64,000 bases of DNA from a virus (Duplodnaviria > Caudoviricetes), in the IMG/VR virus record IMGVR_UViG_3300021399_000103, positions 96,001 to 160,000 of that record; one strand, given 5' to 3'. The notes under the pieces are model-generated. The model was not told the origin of the DNA. It was given only the letters and a program-made list of their open reading frames with translations, and did no database searches. This document shows, piece after piece, positions 23,402 to 57,704 of this stretch. Within the stretch, counting starts at the first letter, position 1. The number at the start of each line of letters is the position of its first letter. Made by a program: the position numbers and the translations under genes.

Positions 23402-23667
23402 TATAAATTTCCTCCAAACCCTTTAACAAAACATCCTATAATTTCTAAAAATTCATCAATATCATCTAAGTAAGCATTATTTTGATTATAGTCAGATGTT
23501 TTTAGAAAATCATAATATGAAATTATATTGACATGATATCCATAAGCATGTGCTTTTACTAACATTGCTTCTGGATTTTTACATACTAATGTTGCGTTTT
23601 CGTCCTGGCAAAGAGCCATTAGTTGTTTTGTTTTACCTGAACCAGGTTCTCCAATAATCTTTTTCAT
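23401..23667 (-). CDS. Small P-loop protein
   Basis: GEPGSGKT..LDD. Confidence 0.6.
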   Translation of the reverse strand: MKKIIGEPGSGKTKQLMALCQDENATLVCKNPEAMLVKAHAYGYHVNIISYYDFLKTSDYNQNNAYLDDIDEFLEIIGCFVKGFGGNL

Positions 23668-24635
23668 TAATTCTTATTCCCCTGTGTACTATTATAACCC
23701 CAATCAGTGCTTTGATAAAAATCAATTCAATACTTCTCACGTTCATTAAGTTGAGATCTCTCGCATTTTTCAATAATTTCATACATAAATGATTCTGGCC
23801 CAATAGACTTCATTTCTGTATAAAATCTATTATTTGAAGAAGAAATACCAAGACCTGCTTTAATATGATCGCGTAATCTATTTCGTAAATCAACACTTTG
23901 ACCTATATAACACTGATTGGTTTTTAAGTTTGTAATTTTATATATTCCACAATGATTTTGTCCAGTAGGAGTTAATCTACCTAATAAATCCATTGTTGGT
24001 TTTTTATAATAAAGTTCCCATATTATTTTATTGATAGGTTCTGGATCTTTATTTAATTTTGTAGCGACTTCTTTTAATAATTGTATATCTTCTATATCTT
24101 GATCTGAAATTTTTAATTTATAATAATCTTTTTCAGATTCTTTAAGCATATTTCTTTTATCTAAATCAATTGCGGCTCTTACTTTTTCTTTTAATGTTTT
24201 TAATTCTTCATTTACAGTATTTAATTCTGCTTGTTTTGCAGCAATACTTTCTGTAAAAAGCTTGGCATTTTCTTCCATTATAGAAAGATATTCTTGTTTA
24301 TGCTTTTCTTCTGCTAATTGATATCTATATCCAGCTATCTCCGCAGACTGAGACATTCGTTCTTGCATTAAATCATATGATTTTTTATAGATTTCGTCTG
24401 CGGCCGCAGATGCCTGGGCGCTTATAGTTTCGATGTCTGCGTTAAGAGACGCCTTTCTTCGTTCTAATGCGCTAGTTTCTGTCTCAGCAGAAGCGATTTC
24501 CGCAGTTAATTTAGTTAAATTATTCTGTAATTCTTTATTCTTTTGGAGCACTTCTTCGTCTAATTTATGCTTTGGATATAAATATATTATTATACCAATC
24601 AATGCTCCAATAATTATCGCATAAATTCAAATCAT
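23667..24635 (-). CDS. Membrane-anchored coiled-coil GIY-YIG nuclease; 322 aa with 2 TGA=Trp
   Basis: GGAG RBS, MI[W]IYAIIIGAL TM helix; GIYKITN..YIGQS; readthrough restores LNEREKY[W]IDFYQS..GYN. Confidence 0.85.
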
Positions 24636-25280: not shown

Positions 25281-27236
25281 TTAAAGCAAGAATTTCTGAA
25301 TAAATTCTTCCTCAGTAATAATCGGCACGCCCAATCTTTTCGCAGTAAGATTTTTGGATGAGGTGCTTGTGTTATCGTTATTGATTAGATAACTTGTTTT
25401 TGCAGAAACAGCACTTGAAACTCTACCACCCCTGGATTCAATTTCAGACTGAAGTGCCGCTCTGTTTTTATACTGTTTTAATGAACCAGTGATTACGACT
25501 ACAATATCTTTTAAATTATCTAAATTATCTTCTTTTGCGGACGCAGGCCACTTTTCTAATGCCGCACCAGCCAAAATAGCTTCACCATAATCAAAGTTTA
25601 GGATTGAGCCTACTCGTTCTGGGCCAAAACCATCAATAGCATAAAAATCAAAGTCAGACCCCTCTTCAGTTGCATGTACAAAAGATGGAAAATCTTTGAA
25701 ATGTTTAGCCAATTCTTTTGCCTGACTCAAACCAATTAATGGTATTCCAATGGCAGAAATATATCTTTCTAATGGAATATCTGAAGTTCTGATATTTTCA
25801 ATCGCTTCAAGAATATTGTCTACAGATTTAATCCCAAAACCAGGTTTTGAAACCCACTCATCTCTATGATATTTTAACTCAAAAATATCGTGAAATTCTT
25901 TTACCCAATCCCAATCAATTAATTTTTCAAGAGTTGCTTTAGAAAGACCTTTAATATCTAAGCCTTTCTTGCCGCAAAAATGATCTAAACGATTAATTAA
26001 TTTACCAGAACAATTTGGATTTTCACAAACTAAAGTAATAGAATCAGTTCCATGCTCGTATAATGGTTCTCCGCAAATAGGACAAACCCAAGGCTGGCTA
26101 ATGTATGATTTTGTATACTCATCATCTTCTTCCGCTGATAAAATTTGCGGAATTATCATATTCGCCTTAAAAATTTTAATTTTTTGACCAACCCAGCTAT
26201 TACCGTGTAAAACACTATGCATTATACTTAAATTATGTAGTGAAGCACGTTCAATTATAGATCCATCTAATTCAACAGGTTCAAATACCGCAACAGGAGT
26301 TAAAACTCCAGTTCTACCCATAGTCCATTGAATATCTTGTAGTTTTGTTTCAACAGTTTCTACTTCTGGTTTCCAAGCAATTCCATTTCTAAAATGGTGG
26401 GATGTTTGTCCTAAAGAATTTCCATATTCAGTATCATTAAATTTCCATACAACACCATCGCAAGGATATTCATCTTTAAAAGACATAATTATACTATTTG
26501 TTGATTTAATTTCATCAACTGGTATATCAGTAATAAAATAAACTGTTTCAAACCCATAAGACTGAACTTCAATTAATTTTTCACTTAACAGCTTATAGTC
26601 ACTACCAACAATAACATCCCAAGCAATAAAAGACAATTTTCTTTCTTCTACTAACTGAGTGTCAAGAACATTTAATGCTCCTGCTGCCGCATTTCTTGGA
26701 TTTTTAAACTCATTATTTTTATTGATTTCTTCAAAATCAGAAACTTTAATTATAGCCTCTCCATCAATAATGAATTCATTTTTATATGGAATTTCTAATG
26801 GAACGTTTTGGAATTGCTTAATATGCTCAGTAATATCAGTGCCTTCAACTCCATTACCGCGGGTGTTTGCGGAAATCAATTTACCATTATTATATTTGAT
26901 GCGGACTGATAAACCATCAAGCTTTATCATAGCAATCATTTCTTGACCATTCGCAAAATCCGCAACCTCCTCGTCGGAGTGGCACTTATCTAAACTAAGC
27001 ATTGGTTTTGGCGTAATAGGAATTTTTTTAAGGAAGGGTAAAGTTGCAGTTCCTACTTGTTGCGTTGGACTATTGGATAAAATTATATTATTTTTATTCT
27101 CAAATGCGGAAAGCTCCTCTAATTTTAAATCATATTCTTGATCACTCATTATAGGACTATCAGAATTATAATACGCATCAGAAGCTTTGTTTAATTGATT
27201 TATTAAATCTGAGTATTCTTGAATATTACGCAACAT
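25281..27236 (-). CDS. ligA: NAD-dependent DNA ligase
   Basis: KLDG, TRGNG, NPRNAAAG, GRTG, Zn finger, BRCT. Confidence 0.96.
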   Translation of the reverse strand: MLRNIQEYSDLINQLNKASDAYYNSDSPIMSDQEYDLKLEELSAFENKNNIILSNSPTQQVGTATLPFLKKIPITPKPMLSLDKCHSDEEVADFANGQEMIAMIKLDGLSVRIKYNNGKLISANTRGNGVEGTDITEHIKQFQNVPLEIPYKNEFIIDGEAIIKVSDFEEINKNNEFKNPRNAAAGALNVLDTQLVEERKLSFIAWDVIVGSDYKLLSEKLIEVQSYGFETVYFITDIPVDEIKSTNSIIMSFKDEYPCDGVVWKFNDTEYGNSLGQTSHHFRNGIAWKPEVETVETKLQDIQWTMGRTGVLTPVAVFEPVELDGSIIERASLHNLSIMHSVLHGNSWVGQKIKIFKANMIIPQILSAEEDDEYTKSYISQPWVCPICGEPLYEHGTDSITLVCENPNCSGKLINRLDHFCGKKGLDIKGLSKATLEKLIDWDWVKEFHDIFELKYHRDEWVSKPGFGIKSVDNILEAIENIRTSDIPLERYISAIGIPLIGLSQAKELAKHFKDFPSFVHATEEGSDFDFYAIDGFGPERVGSILNFDYGEAILAGAALEKWPASAKEDNLDNLKDIVVVITGSLKQYKNRAALQSEIESRGGRVSSAVSAKTSYLINNDNTSTSSKNLTAKRLGVPIITEEEFIQKFLL

Positions 27237-27287
27237 TTTTTCTATTCCTTTCTTACAACCAATTATATTATATCATAATTATTTTAT

Positions 27288-28430
27288 TTAATCAAATCAT
27301 TCTATTTTTGAACCATTAATTTGTGTTGATTTTCTTTTTTTCGCTTGATGAACAGCTTGTCTTGAAACCCCTAAATATCTACCAGCTTCTGAAAAAGAAT
27401 CAAACGGTATTTCATCTATAATACAGATAAATGGTACTTCTATTTCTTCTAATGGTTCATCTGTATAATACAAAAAGTATTTACTTTTATAACGAGTTTT
27501 TTCTCTTAAAGCCTTTTGGATTCCAGTGGTTTTGAATCCTTCTAATTGGATATCTTTTACTGTTTTATAAGTAGATTCCAATTCGCCGCCTGCGTTATAT
27601 ACAGCAATAAAACCTTTTGGATTTCCTATATACTCACCCCTTCGCTGAAGCGTTCTCAATGTAAATAACCGCTCATTTGGAGTGTAATAATACATAGGTG
27701 GTTTTTTATGTTCTATAGAATAGTTATTAAATACGTCATCATTTTGTTTATAAATTTTTATTTTTGTACATATTGGATATTCATTATTTGGTTTTGGATA
27801 TTCTAAAATATCAGAAGCAGGTGTTAAAGTTTTATCTAAACGTAATATATAAATAAATTGTTTAGTTCATGTTTTTCTAACATCTGAATATAAACTGCAT
27901 ATGCCTTCTGTAAATGGAATTGATTCAGGGCAATTATGCTTATATAAATACCATAAAGTTGTTAAGTGACGTTCTTGCCCATCCAATAGCCAAAATCCTT
28001 CAGAAATAAAATATCCTAAATATTCTCAATTTGTTGCTTGATAAATATATCCATAATTACCTTCTTTGCGGCCGGAGTAAGAAACTAGTAACCGCACATT
28101 TGGGCGGTATTTTTTTATTCATTTAATACCAAGAGAAATAGCTTGTGATTCTGAATTTTTCCCTTCTGAATCAGCCATACAAAATCTATTTAATTCAAGG
28201 TATTCTGATTTTTCTATTGGTTCTTTAACATATCTATCAAGTTTAATTTTTTCTTGAAAAGAACAACCTCATTGGAGTACTCCTACTAAAAGATTATCTT
28301 CTTTTCGGAATACTCCAAGATTAAGAATTGCTTTTTTAAATCCTACCCCAGAATAATGTCAAGCAGATGTAAATTGATATGCTTTTGACGAGTTTATCTG
28401 GTCTATAAAATATCTTTTATTTTCAATCAT
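27288..28430 (-). CDS. Mom-like (Mu adenine-modification, GNAT fold) protein fused to a C-terminal NUMOD/HTH domain; 380 aa with 6 TGA=Trp
   Basis: [W]HYS, LELNRF, NSESQAIS, LLVSYS, GYIYQATN[W]EYLG; ATG 2 nt after the gyrA stop; same frame as track ORF 27297..27695. Confidence 0.8.
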
Positions 28431-28432
28431 AA

Positions 28433-30754
28433 TTATACCTTTGATACTGATTGTATCTTATCTTTTAATGTGATATTACCTGCGGCGGTGCGTCCTAAAA
28501 GCGGAATATCTTTCGCTGAAATACAGATTGATTTAGAACTACCAACTACCAATACCTGGTCTTCATCGCTTAATAAAGCGGCTGCCGCAACTTCATCATT
28601 AGATTTATAACAAATAATACCTTTACCACCACGTTTCTGTAAGACAAGATCATTTGGTGAAATTTTCTTACTGAAACCTGATGTTGAAAATATGCCAAGT
28701 GTATCATTACTATCTCTAACGACCAATGTAGCAATTACTTCATCATCATCATTGAGATTTATACCTTTTACGCCAGAAGTAGTTCTTGAAGTTGCTGAAA
28801 TCTCTGTTGAATTGAACTTAATACACATACCTTTCTTAGTAATAAGAATTATTGGTTCATCTTTAATTAAAGATACGCTGGCTAAGTTATCACCTTCTCT
28901 TAATGTGATTGCGGCGATACCTGTTTTCTTTTTTGTCTTTGTGTATTCTTCTAATGAAGTTTTCTTTACTAACCCATTTTTTGTTGTAAACAAGACATAT
29001 TTTGCGTCAGTATCTCTATAAATTGAATAGATTACTGTTGGATTTTCGTTTGGTTGCATTTGAATTAGATTTTTAACAGAAATGCCTTTTGTTGTATTTG
29101 TTCCCCCAGGAATTGAATCTACAATTAAACGATACATGTTACCTTTATCTGAAAATACCATAAGAGAATCAACTGTATTTGTACGAATCACCGCATTTAC
29201 AATATCATCAGTTGTTTTAACTCCCTTGCCACCTCTGCGTTGTGTGCGGAATGAAGTTGCTGGAACTCGTTTAATCAAACCAGAATCAGTCATAATAACA
29301 ACAACCTTCTCTGGTTCAACAAATTGAATTTCTTTATCCTCTTTTTTAATTTCAATTTGTGTTAATTCAGTTCTACGAGCATCTCCATATTTTTTAACAA
29401 GTGAAGCTAATACAATTTTAACTGTTTTATATTGTGCTTCTGTATTATTTAACCAATTTGTAATTTCTTCAATATTTGAAATTAACTGTTTTTCTTCATC
29501 CTGTATTTCAACTTTTTCCAAGTTGGCTAAGCTACTTAATCTCATTGCGAGAATTGCTTTTGCTTGTTCCTCTGAAAAGTTATATTTTTTGATTAACTCT
29601 TCTTTAGCACTTGCCGCAGAAGCTGATTTTCTAATTAATGCAACAATATTGTCAATATCTTCAAGAGCTTTTAATAAACCTTCAACAATATGTAGTCTTG
29701 CTTTAGCTTTATTTAAATCAAATTCTTTTTCTCTTTTCAAACAATTTAAAGCATTGTTTACATAAATTTCACAGCAATCTTTAAGATTTAACTCTGTTGG
29801 AGTTTTACCTACAAGCGCAACTTGATTATATGAGAAACTTGATTGAAGGTTTGTTTTAGCGAATAGCTGATTGGCTATATAATCAGAATTTCTATCACAC
29901 TCAACTACAATTCTAACACCTTTTTTATTAGTTTCATCTCTTACATCAGTAATTCCTTCGATTTCTTCAGCAACTTCACCAATTTCCGCAATTAAAGATT
30001 CTACGTTTGTTCCATAAGGAATTTCATAAAATATAAGATTATTTTTTTCTTTCTTATACTTCGCCCTAATTTTAACTGAACCATGACCTGTTTTCATAAT
30101 GGCTGGAATATCGTTTTTATTGATGATAATTCCACCTGTTGGAAAGTCCGGGCCAGGTAATGTTGGCTCTTTACCATCAATATAATCGTTAATTGCTTGC
30201 GCAACTTCAATTAAATTATGCGGCGCCCAAGAGCAAGCTAAAGCTACACCAATTCCACTATTTGGATTACAAAGAAGATTTGGAAAATAAGATGGAAGAA
30301 CTACTGGTTCTTTATCTAATTCATCATATGTAGGGACAAAATCAACATTATTCTTCTTTAATCCTTGTAACAATCCATCTTCTGAAATTTTTGCAAGTCT
30401 TGCTTCTGTATAACGTGCGGCCGCAGGGCCATCTCCGACGATATTACCATTACTTCCATGCCAGTCAATAAGAGGATAACGCATAATCCAATCCTGAGAA
30501 AGTCGAGCCATTGCGCCATAAATTGAACTGTCACCATGCGGGTGTAATTTACCCATTACATCGCCTACAATACGAGCAGCTTTAACGTGCGGCTTTGAAT
30601 ACGTGCGCCCCTCCATAAGACAAGAATATAAAATACGTTTTGCTACTGGTTTTAACCCATCTACGGCACTGGGGATGGCACGATCGGAATTAACGGCATA
30701 CGCATATTCAATAAAATTAGTATGTAATTCATTATAAATATCGTTATTTTGCAT
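28433..30754 (-). CDS. gyrA: Type IIA topoisomerase subunit A
   Basis: DGLKP, HPHGD, AARYTEAR, GyrA box QRRGGKG. Confidence 0.95.
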   Translation of the reverse strand: MQNNDIYNELHTNFIEYAYAVNSDRAIPSAVDGLKPVAKRILYSCLMEGRTYSKPHVKAARIVGDVMGKLHPHGDSSIYGAMARLSQDWIMRYPLIDWHGSNGNIVGDGPAAARYTEARLAKISEDGLLQGLKKNNVDFVPTYDELDKEPVVLPSYFPNLLCNPNSGIGVALACSWAPHNLIEVAQAINDYIDGKEPTLPGPDFPTGGIIINKNDIPAIMKTGHGSVKIRAKYKKEKNNLIFYEIPYGTNVESLIAEIGEVAEEIEGITDVRDETNKKGVRIVVECDRNSDYIANQLFAKTNLQSSFSYNQVALVGKTPTELNLKDCCEIYVNNALNCLKREKEFDLNKAKARLHIVEGLLKALEDIDNIVALIRKSASAASAKEELIKKYNFSEEQAKAILAMRLSSLANLEKVEIQDEEKQLISNIEEITNWLNNTEAQYKTVKIVLASLVKKYGDARRTELTQIEIKKEDKEIQFVEPEKVVVIMTDSGLIKRVPATSFRTQRRGGKGVKTTDDIVNAVIRTNTVDSLMVFSDKGNMYRLIVDSIPGGTNTTKGISVKNLIQMQPNENPTVIYSIYRDTDAKYVLFTTKNGLVKKTSLEEYTKTKKKTGIAAITLREGDNLASVSLIKDEPIILITKKGMCIKFNSTEISATSRTTSGVKGINLNDDDEVIATLVVRDSNDTLGIFSTSGFSKKISPNDLVLQKRGGKGIICYKSNDEVAAAALLSDEDQVLVVGSSKSICISAKDIPLLGRTAAGNITLKDKIQSVSKV

Positions 30755-31212: not shown

Positions 31213-31486
31213 TATATATTGAATCTTTAAATCTATAATTTTTCCAATGATATAATTTCATTAAAGCTATATATCTGCCAAATATATTTCTATTTGAATA
31301 ATAATTTTTTAAATTATCCCAACAGAATTTTATATAAGGATAATCACCCAGTTTTAATAATGGAATAAAAGTATCTGGATTATTTTCATCAATTACCTGT
31401 TTTACAATTTTCTTTGGTAAATAAAAATCTCCATCTCTATCTTTGTACCAAGTTTCATTATTCGGCGTTATATAATCCCGCTTCAT
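31187..31486 (-). CDS. Hypothetical protein
   Basis: ORF track, AAGGAG RBS. Confidence 0.6.
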   Translation of the reverse strand: MKRDYITPNNETWYKDRDGDFYLPKKIVKQVIDENNPDTFIPLLKLGDYPYIKFCWDNLKNYYSNRNIFGRYIALMKLYHWKNYRFKDSIYNDEEVWHE

Positions 31487-33377
31487 TGCTATGCTCCTTA
31501 ATATATTCTTTTCTTAAACTTGCACTTTGGCCCATTAAAGTTTCAAATAGCTGATCTGTGGCTGTAATATCTTCAATAGTGATTTGCTTAATAATTCTAT
31601 TATTAGGGTCAGTTAAAGTTTCTTCCGTCTCTTCGACCGACATTTCACCAAGTCCTTTAAGTCTATTAACTAGATATTTTACACCCTTATTCTGGTTTCT
31701 AAATTCATCCAGAGCCGCATCATCTTTTAAATATTTATAACCCTTATTTCCAGGTAAAGTAATTTTATAAAGCGGCGGCACTCCCGCATAGACATATCCA
31801 TCCTCAATTAACTGTGGACAGAAGTTCCAGATAAATGTGTAGAACAGGTTTTTGATATGCGCACCATCAACATCAGCATCAGATTCAATAATAATTTTGC
31901 CATATCTCAAATCTTCTGGACGATATGTAATTTTCATTGTCTTAAGATCAATAGTCAATCCAAAAGCATCAATCATTGACATAATTTCTGCATTCTTTTG
32001 GATCTTATCTATTGTTGCTTTCTGAGTGTTAAGAATTTTACCTCTTACCGGCATAACAGCTTGGAATGAATTATCTCTTGCCATTTTTAAGTTAGCAGAT
32101 GCAGAATCACCCTCTGTAATATAAATTTCACAATCTTTTCTGGGTTTGCCTTTACAATCTGCTAATTTCTTATCAAACTTTAAGGCTTTTTCTTTCTTCT
32201 TTGTTTGTGCACGAGCATTATCACGAGCTTTTTTCGCAGCTTCTCTTGCCTTGCGGGCATTGATAGCCTTATCCGCAATTAACTTAACTTCTTTTTCATT
32301 GGCGTTCATCCATGCTTCAAGATTATCAATAATTGCTCTTGTAAAAGGCGTCATATCAATTTTAGTAATTCTTGATTTTACTTGAGCGTCATATGCTACT
32401 CCTGGCGCGGTAATGTTGAAGACGATGTATAAACCTTCTTGGATATCTTCACCAGTGAGGTTTTCATCCTTTTCTTTTAACCATTTTTTCTCCTTGAAGA
32501 ATTTATTAAATTCTCTTGTTAAAATAGTTTTAACTTGTGTAATATGTTGACCAGATTCGGTAAGACCAGTATTAACATATGGAACAATAATAGACCCATA
32601 TGCTGATGTATAAGTCATAACCATATCCATTTTATTCTTACCATTGGCAAAATTCATGTTAAATCTATTATCAATTAATTCTTTATTTTTTACTGCGGTA
32701 TCTACTAAATCGTTAATACCATTTTTAGAAAAGTATGTAGATTTATTACCATTATCATCAAGATTAATTGTTAAACCTGGACAAAGTGCCGTAATAGTCT
32801 TACAAAGATCTTTTACTTTAGAGATTTCAACTTCTGTATGGGTAAAAAACTCTTCAGATGGTTGCCATTGCACAGTTGTTCCATTTTTAAGATTAAAATT
32901 ATTTGGTTTAAATTTTTCTCTTTTTTCAAAAACTCCCTCTTTAAACCAAATATTTTCTCCATCTCCATCTCTTACAGTTCCAACATTTAACCAATGGGAT
33001 AAAAAAGTAGTGATTTTACTACCAATTCCAAAAGATCCTAATGAGGTTCCTTCATAAGTGCCATCTTCACGATATTTTCCAGAAGTGTTTAATACACTGA
33101 AAGCAGCTTCAAGAATTGTTTTTCCATCATCTCTAAATGAATTAGGAATAAAACCTTGTCCATTATCAGTTACCGTTACAATATCTTTATTAATATTAAT
33201 ATCAATCTGATTACCATGACCAAGTCTAAATTCATCAATAGAGTTAGATAAAATTTCGACCAAAAGCTGAGTTGAATATGTAGTATCGCCAGCATATACT
33301 CCTGGTCTTAGTCTTGTAAACTCTAATGGTGAAAGTGATTCAATAGATTGTTCATTATATAAAGTTTTATCTACCAT
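31458..33377 (-). CDS. gyrB: Type IIA topoisomerase subunit B
   Basis: EILSNSIDE, DNGQG, EGDSA, PVRGK, DADVDG, KGLGE. Confidence 0.95.
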   Translation of the reverse strand: MVDKTLYNEQSIESLSPLEFTRLRPGVYAGDTTYSTQLLVEILSNSIDEFRLGHGNQIDININKDIVTVTDNGQGFIPNSFRDDGKTILEAAFSVLNTSGKYREDGTYEGTSLGSFGIGSKITTFLSHWLNVGTVRDGDGENIWFKEGVFEKREKFKPNNFNLKNGTTVQWQPSEEFFTHTEVEISKVKDLCKTITALCPGLTINLDDNGNKSTYFSKNGINDLVDTAVKNKELIDNRFNMNFANGKNKMDMVMTYTSAYGSIIVPYVNTGLTESGQHITQVKTILTREFNKFFKEKKWLKEKDENLTGEDIQEGLYIVFNITAPGVAYDAQVKSRITKIDMTPFTRAIIDNLEAWMNANEKEVKLIADKAINARKAREAAKKARDNARAQTKKKEKALKFDKKLADCKGKPRKDCEIYITEGDSASANLKMARDNSFQAVMPVRGKILNTQKATIDKIQKNAEIMSMIDAFGLTIDLKTMKITYRPEDLRYGKIIIESDADVDGAHIKNLFYTFIWNFCPQLIEDGYVYAGVPPLYKITLPGNKGYKYLKDDAALDEFRNQNKGVKYLVNRLKGLGEMSVEETEETLTDPNNRIIKQITIEDITATDQLFETLMGQSASLRKEYIKEHSNEAGLYNAE

Positions 33378-34577: not shown

Positions 34578-35174
34578 TTATGACAAAAATTTTTCTATTT
34601 GTCAATTTTTTAGAACTTCTTTTCCAGTTTTTGATTTTGGATGATGAATTCCAAAAATAATAGCTCTTATTAAAAGTATGCTAAATCCATGTTTTTCTAA
34701 TCAATAATTAGAATCTGGAAAATTAGATATTTCTGAATAATCAAATATAACTGTTTCATCTCAATTAAAATCTTTACATAAATCATCACATAAAGCTGCT
34801 AATTCAGCAAGGCAGTCTGCTAAATAATCTCTATCATTTAATTTATCTTCGCAAATACAAACATGGATATAGTTATCATTTCAAGTTTTTATATTCAATG
34901 GAAAAGTTTGTACAGTTATTACATTATTATTTTTATCTTTACCTATTCAATAGTGGAAATTATATAATGTATGAATATGATTTCAATCATTATGTTTATG
35001 ATTCTCGCCTAATTGAGCAATAATATCAATATAGTTTTTATTATCTTTACTTGGCTGTACATATTGTCGTAAATAGGGATTATTTCGACCAGAAGAATGA
35101 ATCACAATGCCCACTGGTTTTAATTCCCTATGATAAGCTCATTGAGTGCTGTTCGTCATCATGCAGTTTAGCAT
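34578..35174 (-). CDS. N-acetylmuramoyl-L-alanine amidase (Amidase_2)-like protein; 198 aa with 7 TGA=Trp
   Basis: GAGGG RBS; CMMTNST..GIVIHSSG..RQYVQP..ND[W]NH..HY[W]IGK..TVQTFP..ICED; absent from the ORF track. Confidence 0.72.
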
Positions 35175-38697: not shown

Positions 38698-39741
38698 TTA
38701 ATAATCCATAATTTGTTCTTTCAGCTGATTGGCACGAAGTGGATTTCTTAATTTCTGCATTGCCTTTGCTTCAATTTGACGGGCACGTTCTCTTGTAACA
38801 CCAAGAACTTTGCCAATCTCATCTAAAGTATGTCCAGTTCCATCTTCAAGCCCAAATCGCATTTGAACAACAAGTTTTTCTCTATCAGAAAGAGTTCCGA
38901 GTATATCATTAATAGCCTGTTTTGTGGCATCTCGTCTGACTTTTTCTTCTGGAGTTTCCTGATTTAAGTCTGGAACAATATCTGTCATATCAACATCATC
39001 ATCTTCCGCAACTGGTTTATCAATAGACAGGGGGTTTTTAGATGCGGCAAGGTACATTGCTACTTTCTCAGCGGTTAAACCAGTAGCAGCTCCAATTTCT
39101 TCTTCTGTTGGTTCATGTCCAAGAGTCTGAAGTAATTCGGCTCTTGCTTTAGAAATTTTAGACAATGATTCTACGACATGAACTGGAGTACGAATTGTTC
39201 TGCCCTGGTCAGCAATGGCTCTACTAATCGCCTGGCGCACCCAATATGTAGCATATGTAGAAAACTTAAATCCTTTTGTGTAATCATATTTATCAGCAGC
39301 TTTGTATAAACCAAGGTTACCTTCTTGAACAAGGTCTAAAAAGCTCAGATTACATTTGCCAACATATTTTCTTGCGATAGAAGCTACTAAGCGAAGATTT
39401 GATTCAACTAATTTATTTTTTGCTTCAGTATCCCCATCGACTACTCGTTTCGCAAGATATAATTCTTGTTCTGGACTAAGTAACGGAATAGTGTGAATTT
39501 GACGCATATAAATTTTAGCTGAATTGCTTACTGAATTAAATTTTAAATCATCATTACTTTCTTCATCAAAATCTGGCAACACAACTTGAATATTAGCTTC
39601 ATAAAGAGCGTCATATGCTTTTTCTAATTCTTCATCATCAGAGAAGATTTTTTCAATTTCAGCTTCATCAATTGTGTTATCTTTTGCTTTAGCAATTAAT
39701 GCTTGAATCTTTTGTTCGAATGTCATATTCAACACCTCCAT
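38698..39741 (-). CDS. RpoD/SigA-like sigma factor
   Basis: [20 protein letters not shown], region 4 TRERARQIE. Confidence 0.92.
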
Positions 39742-45472: not shown

Positions 45473-45576
45473 AAGTCGCTTTTGTTTTGGAGTGGAATTG
45501 AACCACCAATAGACAGTTTGGAATACTGTTGCCTTAACCTTTTGGCTACCATCAGATTTTTTGCTGTAAGCGACTT
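45473..45576 (-). ncRNA. Stem-CAGCAA RNA copy C enclosing D, anticodon and T arms in normal order, without a proper acceptor stem
   Basis: AAGTCGCTTA-CAGCAA..ACAGT-ATTCCAA-ACTGT..GGTGG-TTCAATT-CCACT..AAGCGACTT. Confidence 0.7.
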
Positions 45577-47981: not shown

Positions 47982-47983
47982 AG

Positions 47984-48056
47984 CACCCAGGCAAGGAGTC
48001 GAACCCTTTGACGATAGATTTGGAGTCTATTGGAGGCCCGGCCTCCTTTAAGTCTA
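47984..48056 (-). tRNA. tRNA-Trp(CCA), atypical or degenerate
   Basis: Good anticodon arm ATAGA-CTCCAAA-TCTAT and T loop; poorly paired acceptor stem; odd D loop. Confidence 0.55.
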
Positions 48057-51227: not shown

Positions 51228-51276
51228 CAATGTTGTCATCGTTGCCCCTTTGTCTCCCGAAGATGGCCCCATATAG

Positions 51277-51625
51277 TGGAGCTGCGGGGAGTCGAACCCC
51301 GGTCTTGTTCAGTATACTATCGCAATTCTCTTTATCCACAGCTTACTCAAATATTAACTTAGCAAACATATTATTTGAGAACTTTTGTTTGCGGCAGCCC
51401 GCATATGAGATCGGATTAAGCGGCGAGCGCACCTATTCCGTTTGCTTTAATTTATACTCTAACTAGCAAGCTAAAGCTACTTGATAGGAAGGAGCAAAGA
51501 AATTCTTGATCTTTGCGAATGTGCTTTTAATAAAGTTTGCGTTTAATTTTTAATTTAGTGGTTAGAGTCACTACCTCGCTGCGAATTTTGACCTCAACTG
51601 CCAATCGATTTCCATTTACAACCCC
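51277..51625 (-). ncRNA. ssrA: tmRNA; tag ANFIKSTFAKIKNFFAPSYQVALAC
   Basis: GGGGTTG/CAGCTCC-A acceptor with G3.U70, T arm, tag frame 51540-51463. Confidence 0.9.
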
Positions 51626-56552: not shown

Positions 56553-57505
56553 TAGGCTGAGAGAATTGACCTTTTATACCTGCGTCTTATGCGGTTGGCC
56601 GCACGTTCTCACACTCAACTTTTCAGCGAGTAACAGGCATGGACTCTGATCTTGCGAAGACCAGTAGAATCTTACATAGTTCATTATAGCGTTCCTTTTA
56701 TTGCCCAACCTCTTGGAAGAGTTCAATACGTCCCCGCATTTATTGACGACAATTACTTGTACTTACTCACTCTATAACTTGCGGCTTAGTGGTGTCTCCA
56801 TATTTCAGGAGGATAAGTCCATTTTTCTGAAACTATGTCCAGCACACTTTTGCTTTGTATACTTAATCTGTAAAATTGATTTTCCACTGTCAATTTATTA
56901 TTCAAAAGTGTTGTTCCGATTTACTGCGCGATGAGGTGCTGGTTTGGGGTCCGTGCCTTTTGAGCATAGCCCGCCCATCACCGTGCTGCTTTCATGCCAC
57001 TTACTTGCTTCAATGTCGGCGCATGGCGTTTCGTCTAACACGCCGGCGCATTGATTATCCCAGCACTAACCTTTGGCGATGTTCGTACCAGGTAACATAT
57101 CATATTATCATTATTTTCATAACTTATTCCCATCCCAATCTTTCTCGAAGGCATAGGACTGCCGCATACATTCCCTCGTCTGCACGTTGAGAGAAGCGGA
57201 CACAATATTATATGGCTTTCTGTGGAGTCAGTTTTCTAACCGCAGACTACGTTACTTCCTGCTTTAGCCCATCGCTGGGTTATCCTAAGGTGCCGAAGCC
57301 GCACCGAAACATTAGTTGGTTATCCAGGGTCGCCACGTGGAGGCTGTTTCTTGACCCCATTGCCCTCAATGTAAGCTGAGGGCGCATATATGCTAACGTC
57401 TTGACCCCGACGACAGGGAGTAATTTTTACCGAGCTTATTACTATCTGCATCGAACCAACGCCTAGAAGTTGGATAAAAGTTAATATTTCCCATATGGAT
57501 TAACT
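56553..57505 (-). ncRNA. Large ornate ncRNA, GOLLD-like (boundaries approximate)
   Basis: About 950 nt, GC-elevated, no credible ORF, own TTGACA promoter, many hairpins, within a tRNA array; family call rests on recalled resemblance only. Confidence 0.55.
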
Positions 57506-57631: not shown

Positions 57632-57704
57632 TTCCGGGTGCGGGAGTTGAACCCGCCTTTTCGGGATATGAGCCCGACCTGGGACCGATCCAGTGTAACC
57701 CGGG
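57632..57704 (-). tRNA. Initiator-type tRNA-fMet(CAT)
   Basis: C1.A72 mismatch, three G-C pairs at the base of the anticodon stem. Confidence 0.75.

What the first reader, a model, noticed from the sequence alone, without database searches (positions are those of the whole stretch)
27288..28430. Hidden Mom-like DNA-modification enzyme fused to a NUMOD/HTH domain and locked by six TGAs
Seen: the gap between gyrA and ligA is one 380-codon frame with Mom-type motifs, continuing into a homing-endonuclease-like DNA-binding tail. Established: Mu Mom hypermodifies adenine, is toxic, and is held to late expression partly by translational control (Com). Inference: recoding substitutes for that control, and the virion DNA may be modified against restriction. 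The fusion looks unusual.
Basis: partly seen in the sequence, partly recalled or inferred. Interest (0 to 1): 0.7.

Follow-up and report, generated by a model that had tools for sequence, protein, structure and literature searches.

The report
Stop-codon-gated phage DNA-modifying enzyme
A gut-type phage hides a DNA-protecting enzyme among its replication genes and writes it with stop codons that only its own suppressor tRNA should read, and relatives do the same with a different stop codon or a different enzyme, which suggests a code-switch timer for DNA modification.

Summary
Confirmed. Window 27288-28430 (-) is a real 380-aa gene of a 176-kb TGA=Trp phage: a Mom-family GNAT (Pfam E=1.8e-39; fold matches Mu Mom 8BV8) plus a NUMOD1 and HTH tail without nuclease. 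The fusion is a clade-wide family under purifying selection, not a one-off. Six of its 8 Trp codons are TGA, against 2 of 143 in the surrounding replication genes (p=5e-8), the late-gene level. Mom carries TGA or TAG in 12 of 13 independently recoded clusters (this phage included), while gyrA/gyrB/ligA hold 4 such codons in 19,928. The stops are biased to the 5' end, which points to selection for an early block. An unrelated methyltransferase with the same tail fills the same slot in other relatives and is TAG-rich too. A UCA tRNA-Trp split by a group I intron (747-1015; an earlier scan note, tested here) is the likely key. Caveats: standard-code relatives carry the gene unlocked, so recoding does not simply replace Com; Mu's D149 is Gly in all 120 homologues examined, so the chemistry may differ. 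No activity or timing was measured. The scan noted single-stop mom genes in two other genomes, not this pattern.

The parts
27288..28430 (-). mom-like gene, 380 aa under code 4 (TGA=Trp)
   Evidence: dN/dS 0.04-0.17 against close relatives
27792..28412 (-). Mom (GNAT) domain, residues 7-213; keeps H25/Y26, R82, S95, Y130 (Mu H58/Y59, R111, S124, Y159); Mu D149 is G120, Mu R151 is K122 beside invariant R121 and E123
   Evidence: Pfam PF25680 E=1.8e-39; alignment to 8BV8; Foldseek E=4.5e-14; conservation; Mu residues from PMC13219725
27462..27617 (-). NUMOD1-type DNA-binding module, about residues 272-323
   Evidence: PF07453 in 12/38 homologues; homologue model matches I-HmuI 1u3e Z 6.5, rmsd 2.3, 55 aligned; boundaries from the model
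27291..27428 (-). C-terminal helix-turn-helix, about residues 335-380; no nuclease domain found
   Evidence: HTH Pfam hits in homologues; I-TevI DNA-binding domain 1t2t Z 4.7, rmsd 2.6, 42 aligned
28359..28361 (-). TGA codon 24, the first block; leaves a 23-aa peptide in the standard code; Tyr in most homologues
28269..28271 (-). TGA codon 54 (QWG motif); TGA in all TGA-recoded lineages seen
28119..28121 (-). TGA codon 104, invariant Trp
28026..28028 (-). TGA codon 135, invariant Trp (YQATNW)
27867..27869 (-). TGA codon 188
27297..27299 (-). TGA codon 378, conserved Trp of the HTH
28433..30754 (-). gyrA, no TGA; its stop lies 2 nt before the mom ATG and it holds the AAAGGT ribosome site of mom
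31458..33377 (-). gyrB, no TGA; a promoter-like site (11/12 sigma-70 match) lies upstream at 33607-33579
27267..27295 (-). promoter-like site (10/12, extended -10) overlapping the mom stop, in front of ligA
   Evidence: consensus match only
25281..27236 (-). NAD-dependent DNA ligase, 10 TGG and no TGA
747..1015 (+). tRNA-Trp with UCA anticodon, split after U34 by a group I-like intron (781-976); likely decoder of the TGAs
   Evidence: removing 781-976 (U before, G at the end) gives a clean cloverleaf called tRNA-Trp(tca); Rfam Intron_gpI E=0.0014, 22.7 bits, below its cut-off of 50; lead from e1-5687486

Best explanation
The gene encodes a post-replicative DNA base-modifying enzyme of the Mom family whose synthesis is held back until the phage switches the genetic code. 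Steps: (1) mom is probably transcribed with gyrB-gyrA as their last cistron, 2 nt behind gyrA [layout shown; co-transcription inferred]. (2) In the standard-code host, RF2 ends translation at TGA 24, before any catalytic residue, while gyrase and ligase are made in full [shown by codon content; timing inferred]. (3) Once the phage tRNA-Trp(UCA) has been spliced and has built up, the six TGAs are read as Trp, together with the virion and lysis genes [tRNA shown in sequence; splicing and readthrough inferred]. (4) The Mom domain then acylates bases of progeny DNA, most likely adenine N6 from an aminoacyl-tRNA as in Mu, and the NUMOD1-HTH tail holds it on DNA; packaged DNA resists host restriction [inferred from homology; the D149-to-Gly change leaves donor and target open]. 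The position works as an exchangeable slot: a methyltransferase with the same tail replaces Mom in other relatives and is gated the same way.
For: Family and fold. Five of the seven active-site residues named in PMC13219725 are invariant in 120 homologues, a sixth is conservative (R151 to K). Purifying selection on both domains. Codon signature: 6/8 vs 2/143 in 28 neighbouring genes, p=5e-8; equal to the late arm, 240/362, p=0.72. Relatives in 36 clusters at 80% identity: TGA 18/30 in mom vs 0/34 in gyrA/gyrB/ligA; TAG 95/202 vs 4/417. With recoding judged only from other genes, 12/13 clusters have a stop in mom. The stops are 5'-biased: mean rank 0.37 vs 0.50 (p<1e-4); first Gln/Trp recoded in 19/26 vs 11.7 expected; 6/7 vs 1.0 in lightly recoded copies; it holds with one copy per lineage and without site 11; 25/26 first stops precede R82. 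No such bias in this genome's late genes (p=0.22) or in the neighbouring recoded GIY-YIG gene (p=0.58). A methyltransferase with the same tail sits between gyrA and ligA with 13-20 TAG while the flanks have none (L160-L162; L158 has 11 TAG and ligA behind it), also 5'-biased (n=5, p=0.002). Mu Mom is lethal when overexpressed and limited to late infection (PMC7261163). Suppressor tRNA.
Against: Standard-code relatives hold the same gene in the same place without stops, and L085 (TAG phage) has none in mom, so the lock is dispensable. In this genome alone the TGA share is no higher than in late genes, and TGA/TAG levels fit AT-driven drift once stops are tolerated. D149, whose Ala mutant strongly reduces Mu Mom activity (PMC13219725; D139A in PMC7261163), is Gly in 120/120; W48 and W181 are not kept either. 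Clusters are related, so p-values overstate independence. A late promoter inside gyrA is not excluded.
Confidence: 0.6

Rival explanations
1. Tolerance, not a lock. Mom is simply not needed before the code switch (perhaps it has its own late promoter inside gyrA), so TGA and TAG drift in under AT pressure as in any late gene and do no regulatory work.
For: TGA share 75% vs 66% in late genes, p=0.72; TAG roughly equals CAA in TAG phages (158 vs 141, CAG 23), as mutation balance predicts; unlocked copies in standard-code phages and in L085.
Against: Drift does not predict a 5' bias; it is seen in mom and the methyltransferase but not in late genes or the GIY-YIG neighbour, and it holds for TAG vs CAA, which have equal AT content (p=1e-4). 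This rival still makes Mom a late product.
Confidence: 0.22
2. The protein is late-gated but does not do Mu's chemistry: the D149-to-Gly site uses another aminoacyl or acyl donor or another target (another base, RNA or a protein such as gyrase), or the tail makes it mainly a DNA-binding regulator, as the I-TevI domain is at its operator.
For: SY[AS]GRKE replaces S[YF][AS]D in 120/120 clade members while 75/76 distant Mom loci keep Asp; constant place beside gyrase genes; tail resembles the I-TevI operator-binding domain.
Against: R111, S124, H58, Y59 and Y159 are invariant; the gene is exchangeable with a DNA amino-methyltransferase carrying the same tail, which points to DNA as target. A different DNA adduct is compatible with the best explanation.
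Confidence: 0.13
3. Pseudogene or selfish homing-endonuclease remnant broken by nonsense mutations.
For: The tail derives from homing-endonuclease modules; other scan notes describe mom genes knocked out by single stops (e1-3427255, not tested here).
Against: All six stops are TGA, five at conserved Trp; no TAA, TAG or frameshift; dN/dS 0.04-0.17; genome-wide code 4 raises coding density from 0.66 to 0.85; no nuclease domain in the tail.
Confidence: 0.03

Closest known systems
Bacteriophage Mu Mom (Pfam PF25680, PHROG 1384, PDB 8BV8; PMC13219725, PMC7261163)
   Same: GNAT fold (Foldseek E=4.5e-14, TM 0.76 by target), H58, Y59, R111, S124, Y159 kept, insertion after the GNAT core, restriction to late expression predicted.
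   Different: About 150 extra residues (NUMOD1 + HTH); D149 is Gly, R151 is Lys, W48 and W181 not kept; lies in a replication operon of a large lytic-type Firmicutes-like phage; no Com gene found and no stable hairpin on the start site; gated by recoded stop codons.
Stop-codon-recoded gut phages, Agate clade (Borges et al., bioRxiv 10.1101/2021.08.26.457843); Phass-1 (OQ749652, PMC10607447)
   Same: Recoded structural and lysis arm, standard-code replication arm, three codes in one clade, GC-skew flip, suppressor tRNA; that paper also reports a recoded intron endonuclease inside an early gene.
   Different: Neither paper mentions Mom, methyltransferases or DNA modification as recoded targets; no 5' bias of stops or exchangeable enzyme slot is described; here the suppressor tRNA is intron-split.
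NUMOD1/HTH DNA-binding modules of homing endonucleases I-HmuI (1U3E) and I-TevI (1T2T)
   Same: Fold of the two tail modules (Z 6.5 and 4.7, moderate).
   Different: No HNH or GIY-YIG catalytic domain; attached to base-modifying enzymes.
Mom-REase fusions of jumbo phages (Iyer et al., PMC7824862)
   Same: Mom domain fused to a second DNA-acting domain in a large phage.
   Different: Their partner is a restriction-type nuclease; here it is a non-catalytic DNA-binding tail.

Membership tests
Mom family (PF25680) | Profile match above the curated cut-off | tested here: met
   135.9 bits vs cut-off 27.1, model positions 2-202 of 202; PHROG 1384 E=7e-38
Mom family (PF25680) | GNAT fold closest to Mu Mom | tested here: met
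   model pLDDT 85.8; top Foldseek hits 8bv8_B/A, E 5e-14 and 7e-14, next GNAT E 1e-5
Mom family (PF25680) | Essential R111 and S124, with H58, Y59, Y159 | tested here: met
   R82, S95, H25, Y26, Y130 invariant in 120 homologues
Mu-type Mom activity (6-NcmdA) | D149 and R151 in the S-F-A-D-E-R motif | tested here: not met
   G120 in 120/120; K122 in 117/120, with R121 in 119/120 one position earlier
Mu-type Mom activity (6-NcmdA) | Glycyl transfer from Gly-tRNA(Gly) to adenine N6 in dsDNA; restriction protection | not testable with these tools
   needs in vitro assay and LC-MS
Mu com-mom control | Com zinc-ribbon gene and a hairpin hiding the mom start | tested here: inconclusive
   PF10122 not found but the control rang nowhere; start region folds weakly, z=-0.98; the upstream gene is gyrA
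Code-4 (TGA=Trp) recoded phage | Coding density gain under code 4, TGA at conserved Trp, suppressor tRNA | tested here: met
   0.655 to 0.849; spliced tRNA-Trp(UCA)
Agate clade | Placement in the terminase tree of Borges et al. | not tested
   reference sequences not held; size, three codes in the clade and skew flip fit
Homing endonuclease (HNH or GIY-YIG) | Catalytic nuclease domain | tested here: not met
   no nuclease family hit in 38 members; the model assigns residues 1-228 to the Mom fold and the rest to a linker, NUMOD1 and HTH
NUMOD1 domain | Profile or fold match | tested here: met
   12/38 homologues, best E 1.3e-5; I-HmuI Z 6.5; weak in this protein alone

The most novel reading that the evidence does not exclude
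This phage clade keeps an exchangeable DNA-modification slot in its gyrase operon (Mom or a methyltransferase on a shared NUMOD1-HTH tail) that is switched on late by a selected early stop codon, opened by an intron-split suppressor tRNA, and the clade's Mom, lacking D149, installs a base modification other than Mu's 6-NcmdA.
Probability: 0.2. Interest if true: 0.82.

Novelty: new variant of a known kind. Interest (0 to 1): 0.62.

Why it matters
Whether phage stop-codon recoding is selected as a timing switch or only drifts into late genes is an open question. A single gene embedded in a stop-free operon, recoded in two different codes in many lineages, with stops pushed to the 5' end and with an unrelated enzyme in the same slot behaving alike, is a clean natural test case, and one that can be assayed in E. 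coli with and without the suppressor. It extends recoding control from lysis and structure to DNA modification. The clade's Mom is invisible to standard gene calling in recoded genomes and has a fixed active-site change, so it is a candidate for new tRNA-dependent DNA chemistry.

Tried and rejected
Sequencing error or pseudogene: rejected. Tail made alone from the internal ATG at 27695 (132-aa ORF in code 11): no clear ribosome site and the Met is not conserved. Com-like control: no stable hairpin; Pfam search uninformative. Phage release factor: none found in a genome estimated 94% complete. DNA pattern scans for relatives of two tRNAs found nothing. Repeats around the gene: only chance-level pairs. 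K-mer scan gave no target motif; palindromes are mildly avoided, O/E 0.83. No full-length relative among GenBank phages. Literature searches found no paper joining Mom with recoding; the library is incomplete.

Full report
Observation. The gap between gyrA (28433-30754) and the NAD-dependent ligase gene (25281-27236), both on the minus strand, holds only a 132-aa ORF in code 11 but one 380-aa ORF in code 4, 28430 to 27288, with TGA at codons 24, 54, 104, 135, 188 and 378. The chance of such a frame without TAA or TAG is about 2e-12. Five TGAs fall on conserved Trp; codon 24 is Tyr in 114 of 120 homologues. Separate contigs at 96-97% and 88% identity carry TGA at the same sites.

The genome. 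The window is 96001-160000 of a 176,419-bp virus record. Code 4 lifts coding density from 0.655 to 0.849, almost all in the plus-strand structural and lysis arm. GC skew flips near 16 kb and 98 kb. This fits the recoded Agate phages of Borges et al.; I did not test clade membership. The best named match of a probable capsid protein is Phass-1 at 49%. No plain UCA tRNA and no release factor were found. An earlier scan note (e1-5687486) pointed to an intron-split tRNA. Tested here: removing window 781-976, which follows a U and ends in G as group I introns do (own knowledge), yields a clean tRNA-Trp(UCA) at 747-1015, and the insert has a weak, full-length Rfam group I match (E=0.0014, below cut-off). 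Splicing is inferred.

The protein. Residues 7-213 match Pfam Mom at 135.9 bits, PHROG 1384 and Mu Mom 8BV8 by sequence (E=2e-17) and by fold (E=4.5e-14). Silva et al. (PMC13219725) show that Mu Mom moves glycine from Gly-tRNA(Gly) to adenine N6 and name H58, Y59, R111, S124, D149, R151 and Y159 as active-site residues. By the alignment these are H25, Y26, R82, S95, G120, K122 and Y130. Five are invariant in 120 homologues; D149 is Gly in all 120, whereas 75 of 76 distant Mom loci (not de-duplicated) keep Asp. The protein is a Mom family member, but a defining residue of the Mu enzyme is not met, so donor and product are open. dN/dS is 0.04-0.08 for the Mom domain and 0.04-0.17 for the tail.

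The tail. It scores weakly alone, but NUMOD1 is hit in 12 of 38 homologues and HTH families in several. A model of a homologue's tail (pLDDT 89) matches the DNA-binding parts of I-HmuI (Z 6.5, rmsd 2.3, 55 aligned) and I-TevI (Z 4.7, rmsd 2.6, 42 aligned); these are moderate scores that agree with the profiles. No nuclease domain is present. The fusion is not rare: 331 homologues of similar length, in the same neighbourhood, mostly gyrA-mom-ligA, sometimes before gyrB or gyrA. None is in GenBank phages at full length. A profile of the tail also finds a family of about 500-aa DNA amino-methyltransferase-like proteins.

The lock, within the genome. In 28 replication-arm genes Trp is TGA 2 times and TGG 141 times; mom has 6 and 2 (Fisher p=5e-8), like the late arm, 240 and 122 (p=0.72). 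The mom ATG lies 2 nt behind the gyrA stop with its ribosome site inside gyrA; 2-4 nt spacing recurs in several relatives. Sigma-70-like sites lie upstream of gyrB and between mom and ligA (matches only). So mom is probably on the gyrase message, and the first TGA would end translation after 23 residues. No strong hairpin covers the start.

The lock, across relatives. A Trp- and Gln-free DNA pattern gave 59 loci, joined by look-ups. In 36 clusters at 80% identity, 4 are TGA-recoded, 20 TAG-recoded and 12 unrecoded or unclear. Against gyrA, gyrB and ligA of the same loci: TGA 18 of 30 Trp vs 0 of 34; TAG 95 of 202 Gln vs 4 of 417. To avoid circularity, recoding was also judged from other genes only: mom has at least one stop in 12 of 13 clusters (this phage is one of them), the three flanking genes 4 in 19,928 codons. 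Codes are interleaved on the tree (at least 5 changes for TAG on well-supported branches). The exception is L085, a TAG phage with no TAG in mom.

Selection or drift. Overall levels fit drift: TAG about equals CAA. Position does not. Recoded codons have mean rank 0.37 among Gln or Trp codons against 0.50 expected (p<1e-4); the first such codon is recoded in 19 of 26 against 11.7; in copies with 1-3 stops, 6 of 7 against 1.0. The rank bias remains without site 11, without sites 11 and 54, and with one copy for each of 14 lineages, and for TAG against CAA alone. Controls show none: this genome's late genes (p=0.22), the recoded GIY-YIG neighbour (p=0.58), Lys and Glu codons of mom; CAA against CAG shows a slight one (0.48, p=0.02). 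The window's own Tyr-to-Trp(TGA) change at codon 24 moves the first stop forward, which fits. Shared ancestry inflates these p-values and a tree-aware test is still needed.

A second enzyme in the slot. The methyltransferase with the same tail lies between gyrA and ligA in L160-L162 (and just before ligA in L158) with 11-20 TAG codons while gyrA, gyrB and ligA have none; in L159 its single TAG is the first Gln; in L163-L165 it lies between rnhA and gyrB, Mom's other position, without stops. Its stops are also 5'-biased (n=5, p=0.002). That two unrelated catalytic domains share tail, place and gating supports DNA as target and late timing as the need.

Mechanism and limits. Most likely (0.6): late-gated, post-replicative modification of progeny DNA against restriction. 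Mu limits its lethal Mom to late infection (PMC7261163), and consuming charged tRNA or modifying replicating DNA gives a reason to wait (PMC13219725). Shown: gene, family, fold, codon pattern, 5' bias, slot, suppressor gene. Inferred: co-transcription, splicing, timing, activity, protection. Standard-code relatives keep the gene unlocked (L002, L156, L157), so recoding adds to, rather than replaces, whatever control the ancestor used. Rivals: tolerance without function (0.22), other chemistry or target (0.13), pseudogene (0.03).

Novelty. Mom, recoded phages and NUMOD tails are each known. The two recoding papers read do not mention Mom or methyltransferases, and searches found no paper joining them. 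Jumbo-phage Mom fusions described are to nucleases. Verdict: new variant of a known kind, interest 0.62.

Noticed in passing
window 747-1015 (+): tRNA-Trp(UCA) split in the anticodon by a group I-like intron (781-976), just behind the lysis genes; missed by standard tRNA callers, which may explain why many recoded phages seem to lack suppressors. Lead from e1-5687486.
   Followed up: partly
window 47983-48053 (-): Atypical tRNA-Trp(CCA) with an enlarged, GC-rich D-arm hairpin and several G-U acceptor pairs; found only at relaxed ARAGORN threshold.
   Followed up: partly
window 45483-45555 (-): tRNA-like gene (Rfam 46 bits) with UCC anticodon and three mismatches in the acceptor stem, one base from UCA; pseudo-tRNA or decayed suppressor.
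   Followed up: partly
window 56554-56986 (-): GOLLD-like large RNA (Rfam E=7e-21, 84 bits, below cut-off 150) among the tRNA genes; tmRNA at 51274-51625; initiator-type tRNA(CAU) at 57632-57704 missed by ARAGORN.
   Followed up: no
window 34578-35171 (-): Amidase_2 gene in the replication arm with 7 TGA and no TGG: a second recoded island.
   Followed up: partly
window 23667-24635 (-): N-terminal membrane anchor, coiled coil and GIY-YIG nuclease; TGA at codons 3 and 303; conserved in place and recoded in most TAG relatives (36% of Gln/Trp), even where mom is not (L085).
   Followed up: partly
window 1507-2088 and 2143-2670 (-): Two genes with 4 TGA each; the second is RuvC-like (E=1.8e-6), plausibly a late resolvase for packaging.
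   Followed up: no
window 38698-39741 (-): Full sigma-70-type factor in standard code.
   Followed up: no
L158:121-1644, L160-L165, proteins P0155, P0163, P0182, P0196: Unnamed family of about 500-aa amino-methyltransferase-like proteins with the NUMOD1-HTH tail, occupying Mom's slot; P0208 adds an N-terminal GNAT.
   Followed up: yes
L084:3252-9998 and L153:4079-9997: gyrB and gyrA are interrupted by GIY-YIG-carrying inserts (probable introns) in a near-identical relative and in L153, but not in the window.
   Followed up: no
L008-L012: Sister Mom group without the tail, motif SFSDGKE (keeps Asp), from other viruses; P0138 is a phosphoesterase-Mom-NUMOD1 fusion.
   Followed up: no
L085:1-4902: Nucleotide-sugar and glycosyltransferase cluster upstream of gyrB in the TAG phage whose mom has no TAG.
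   Followed up: no
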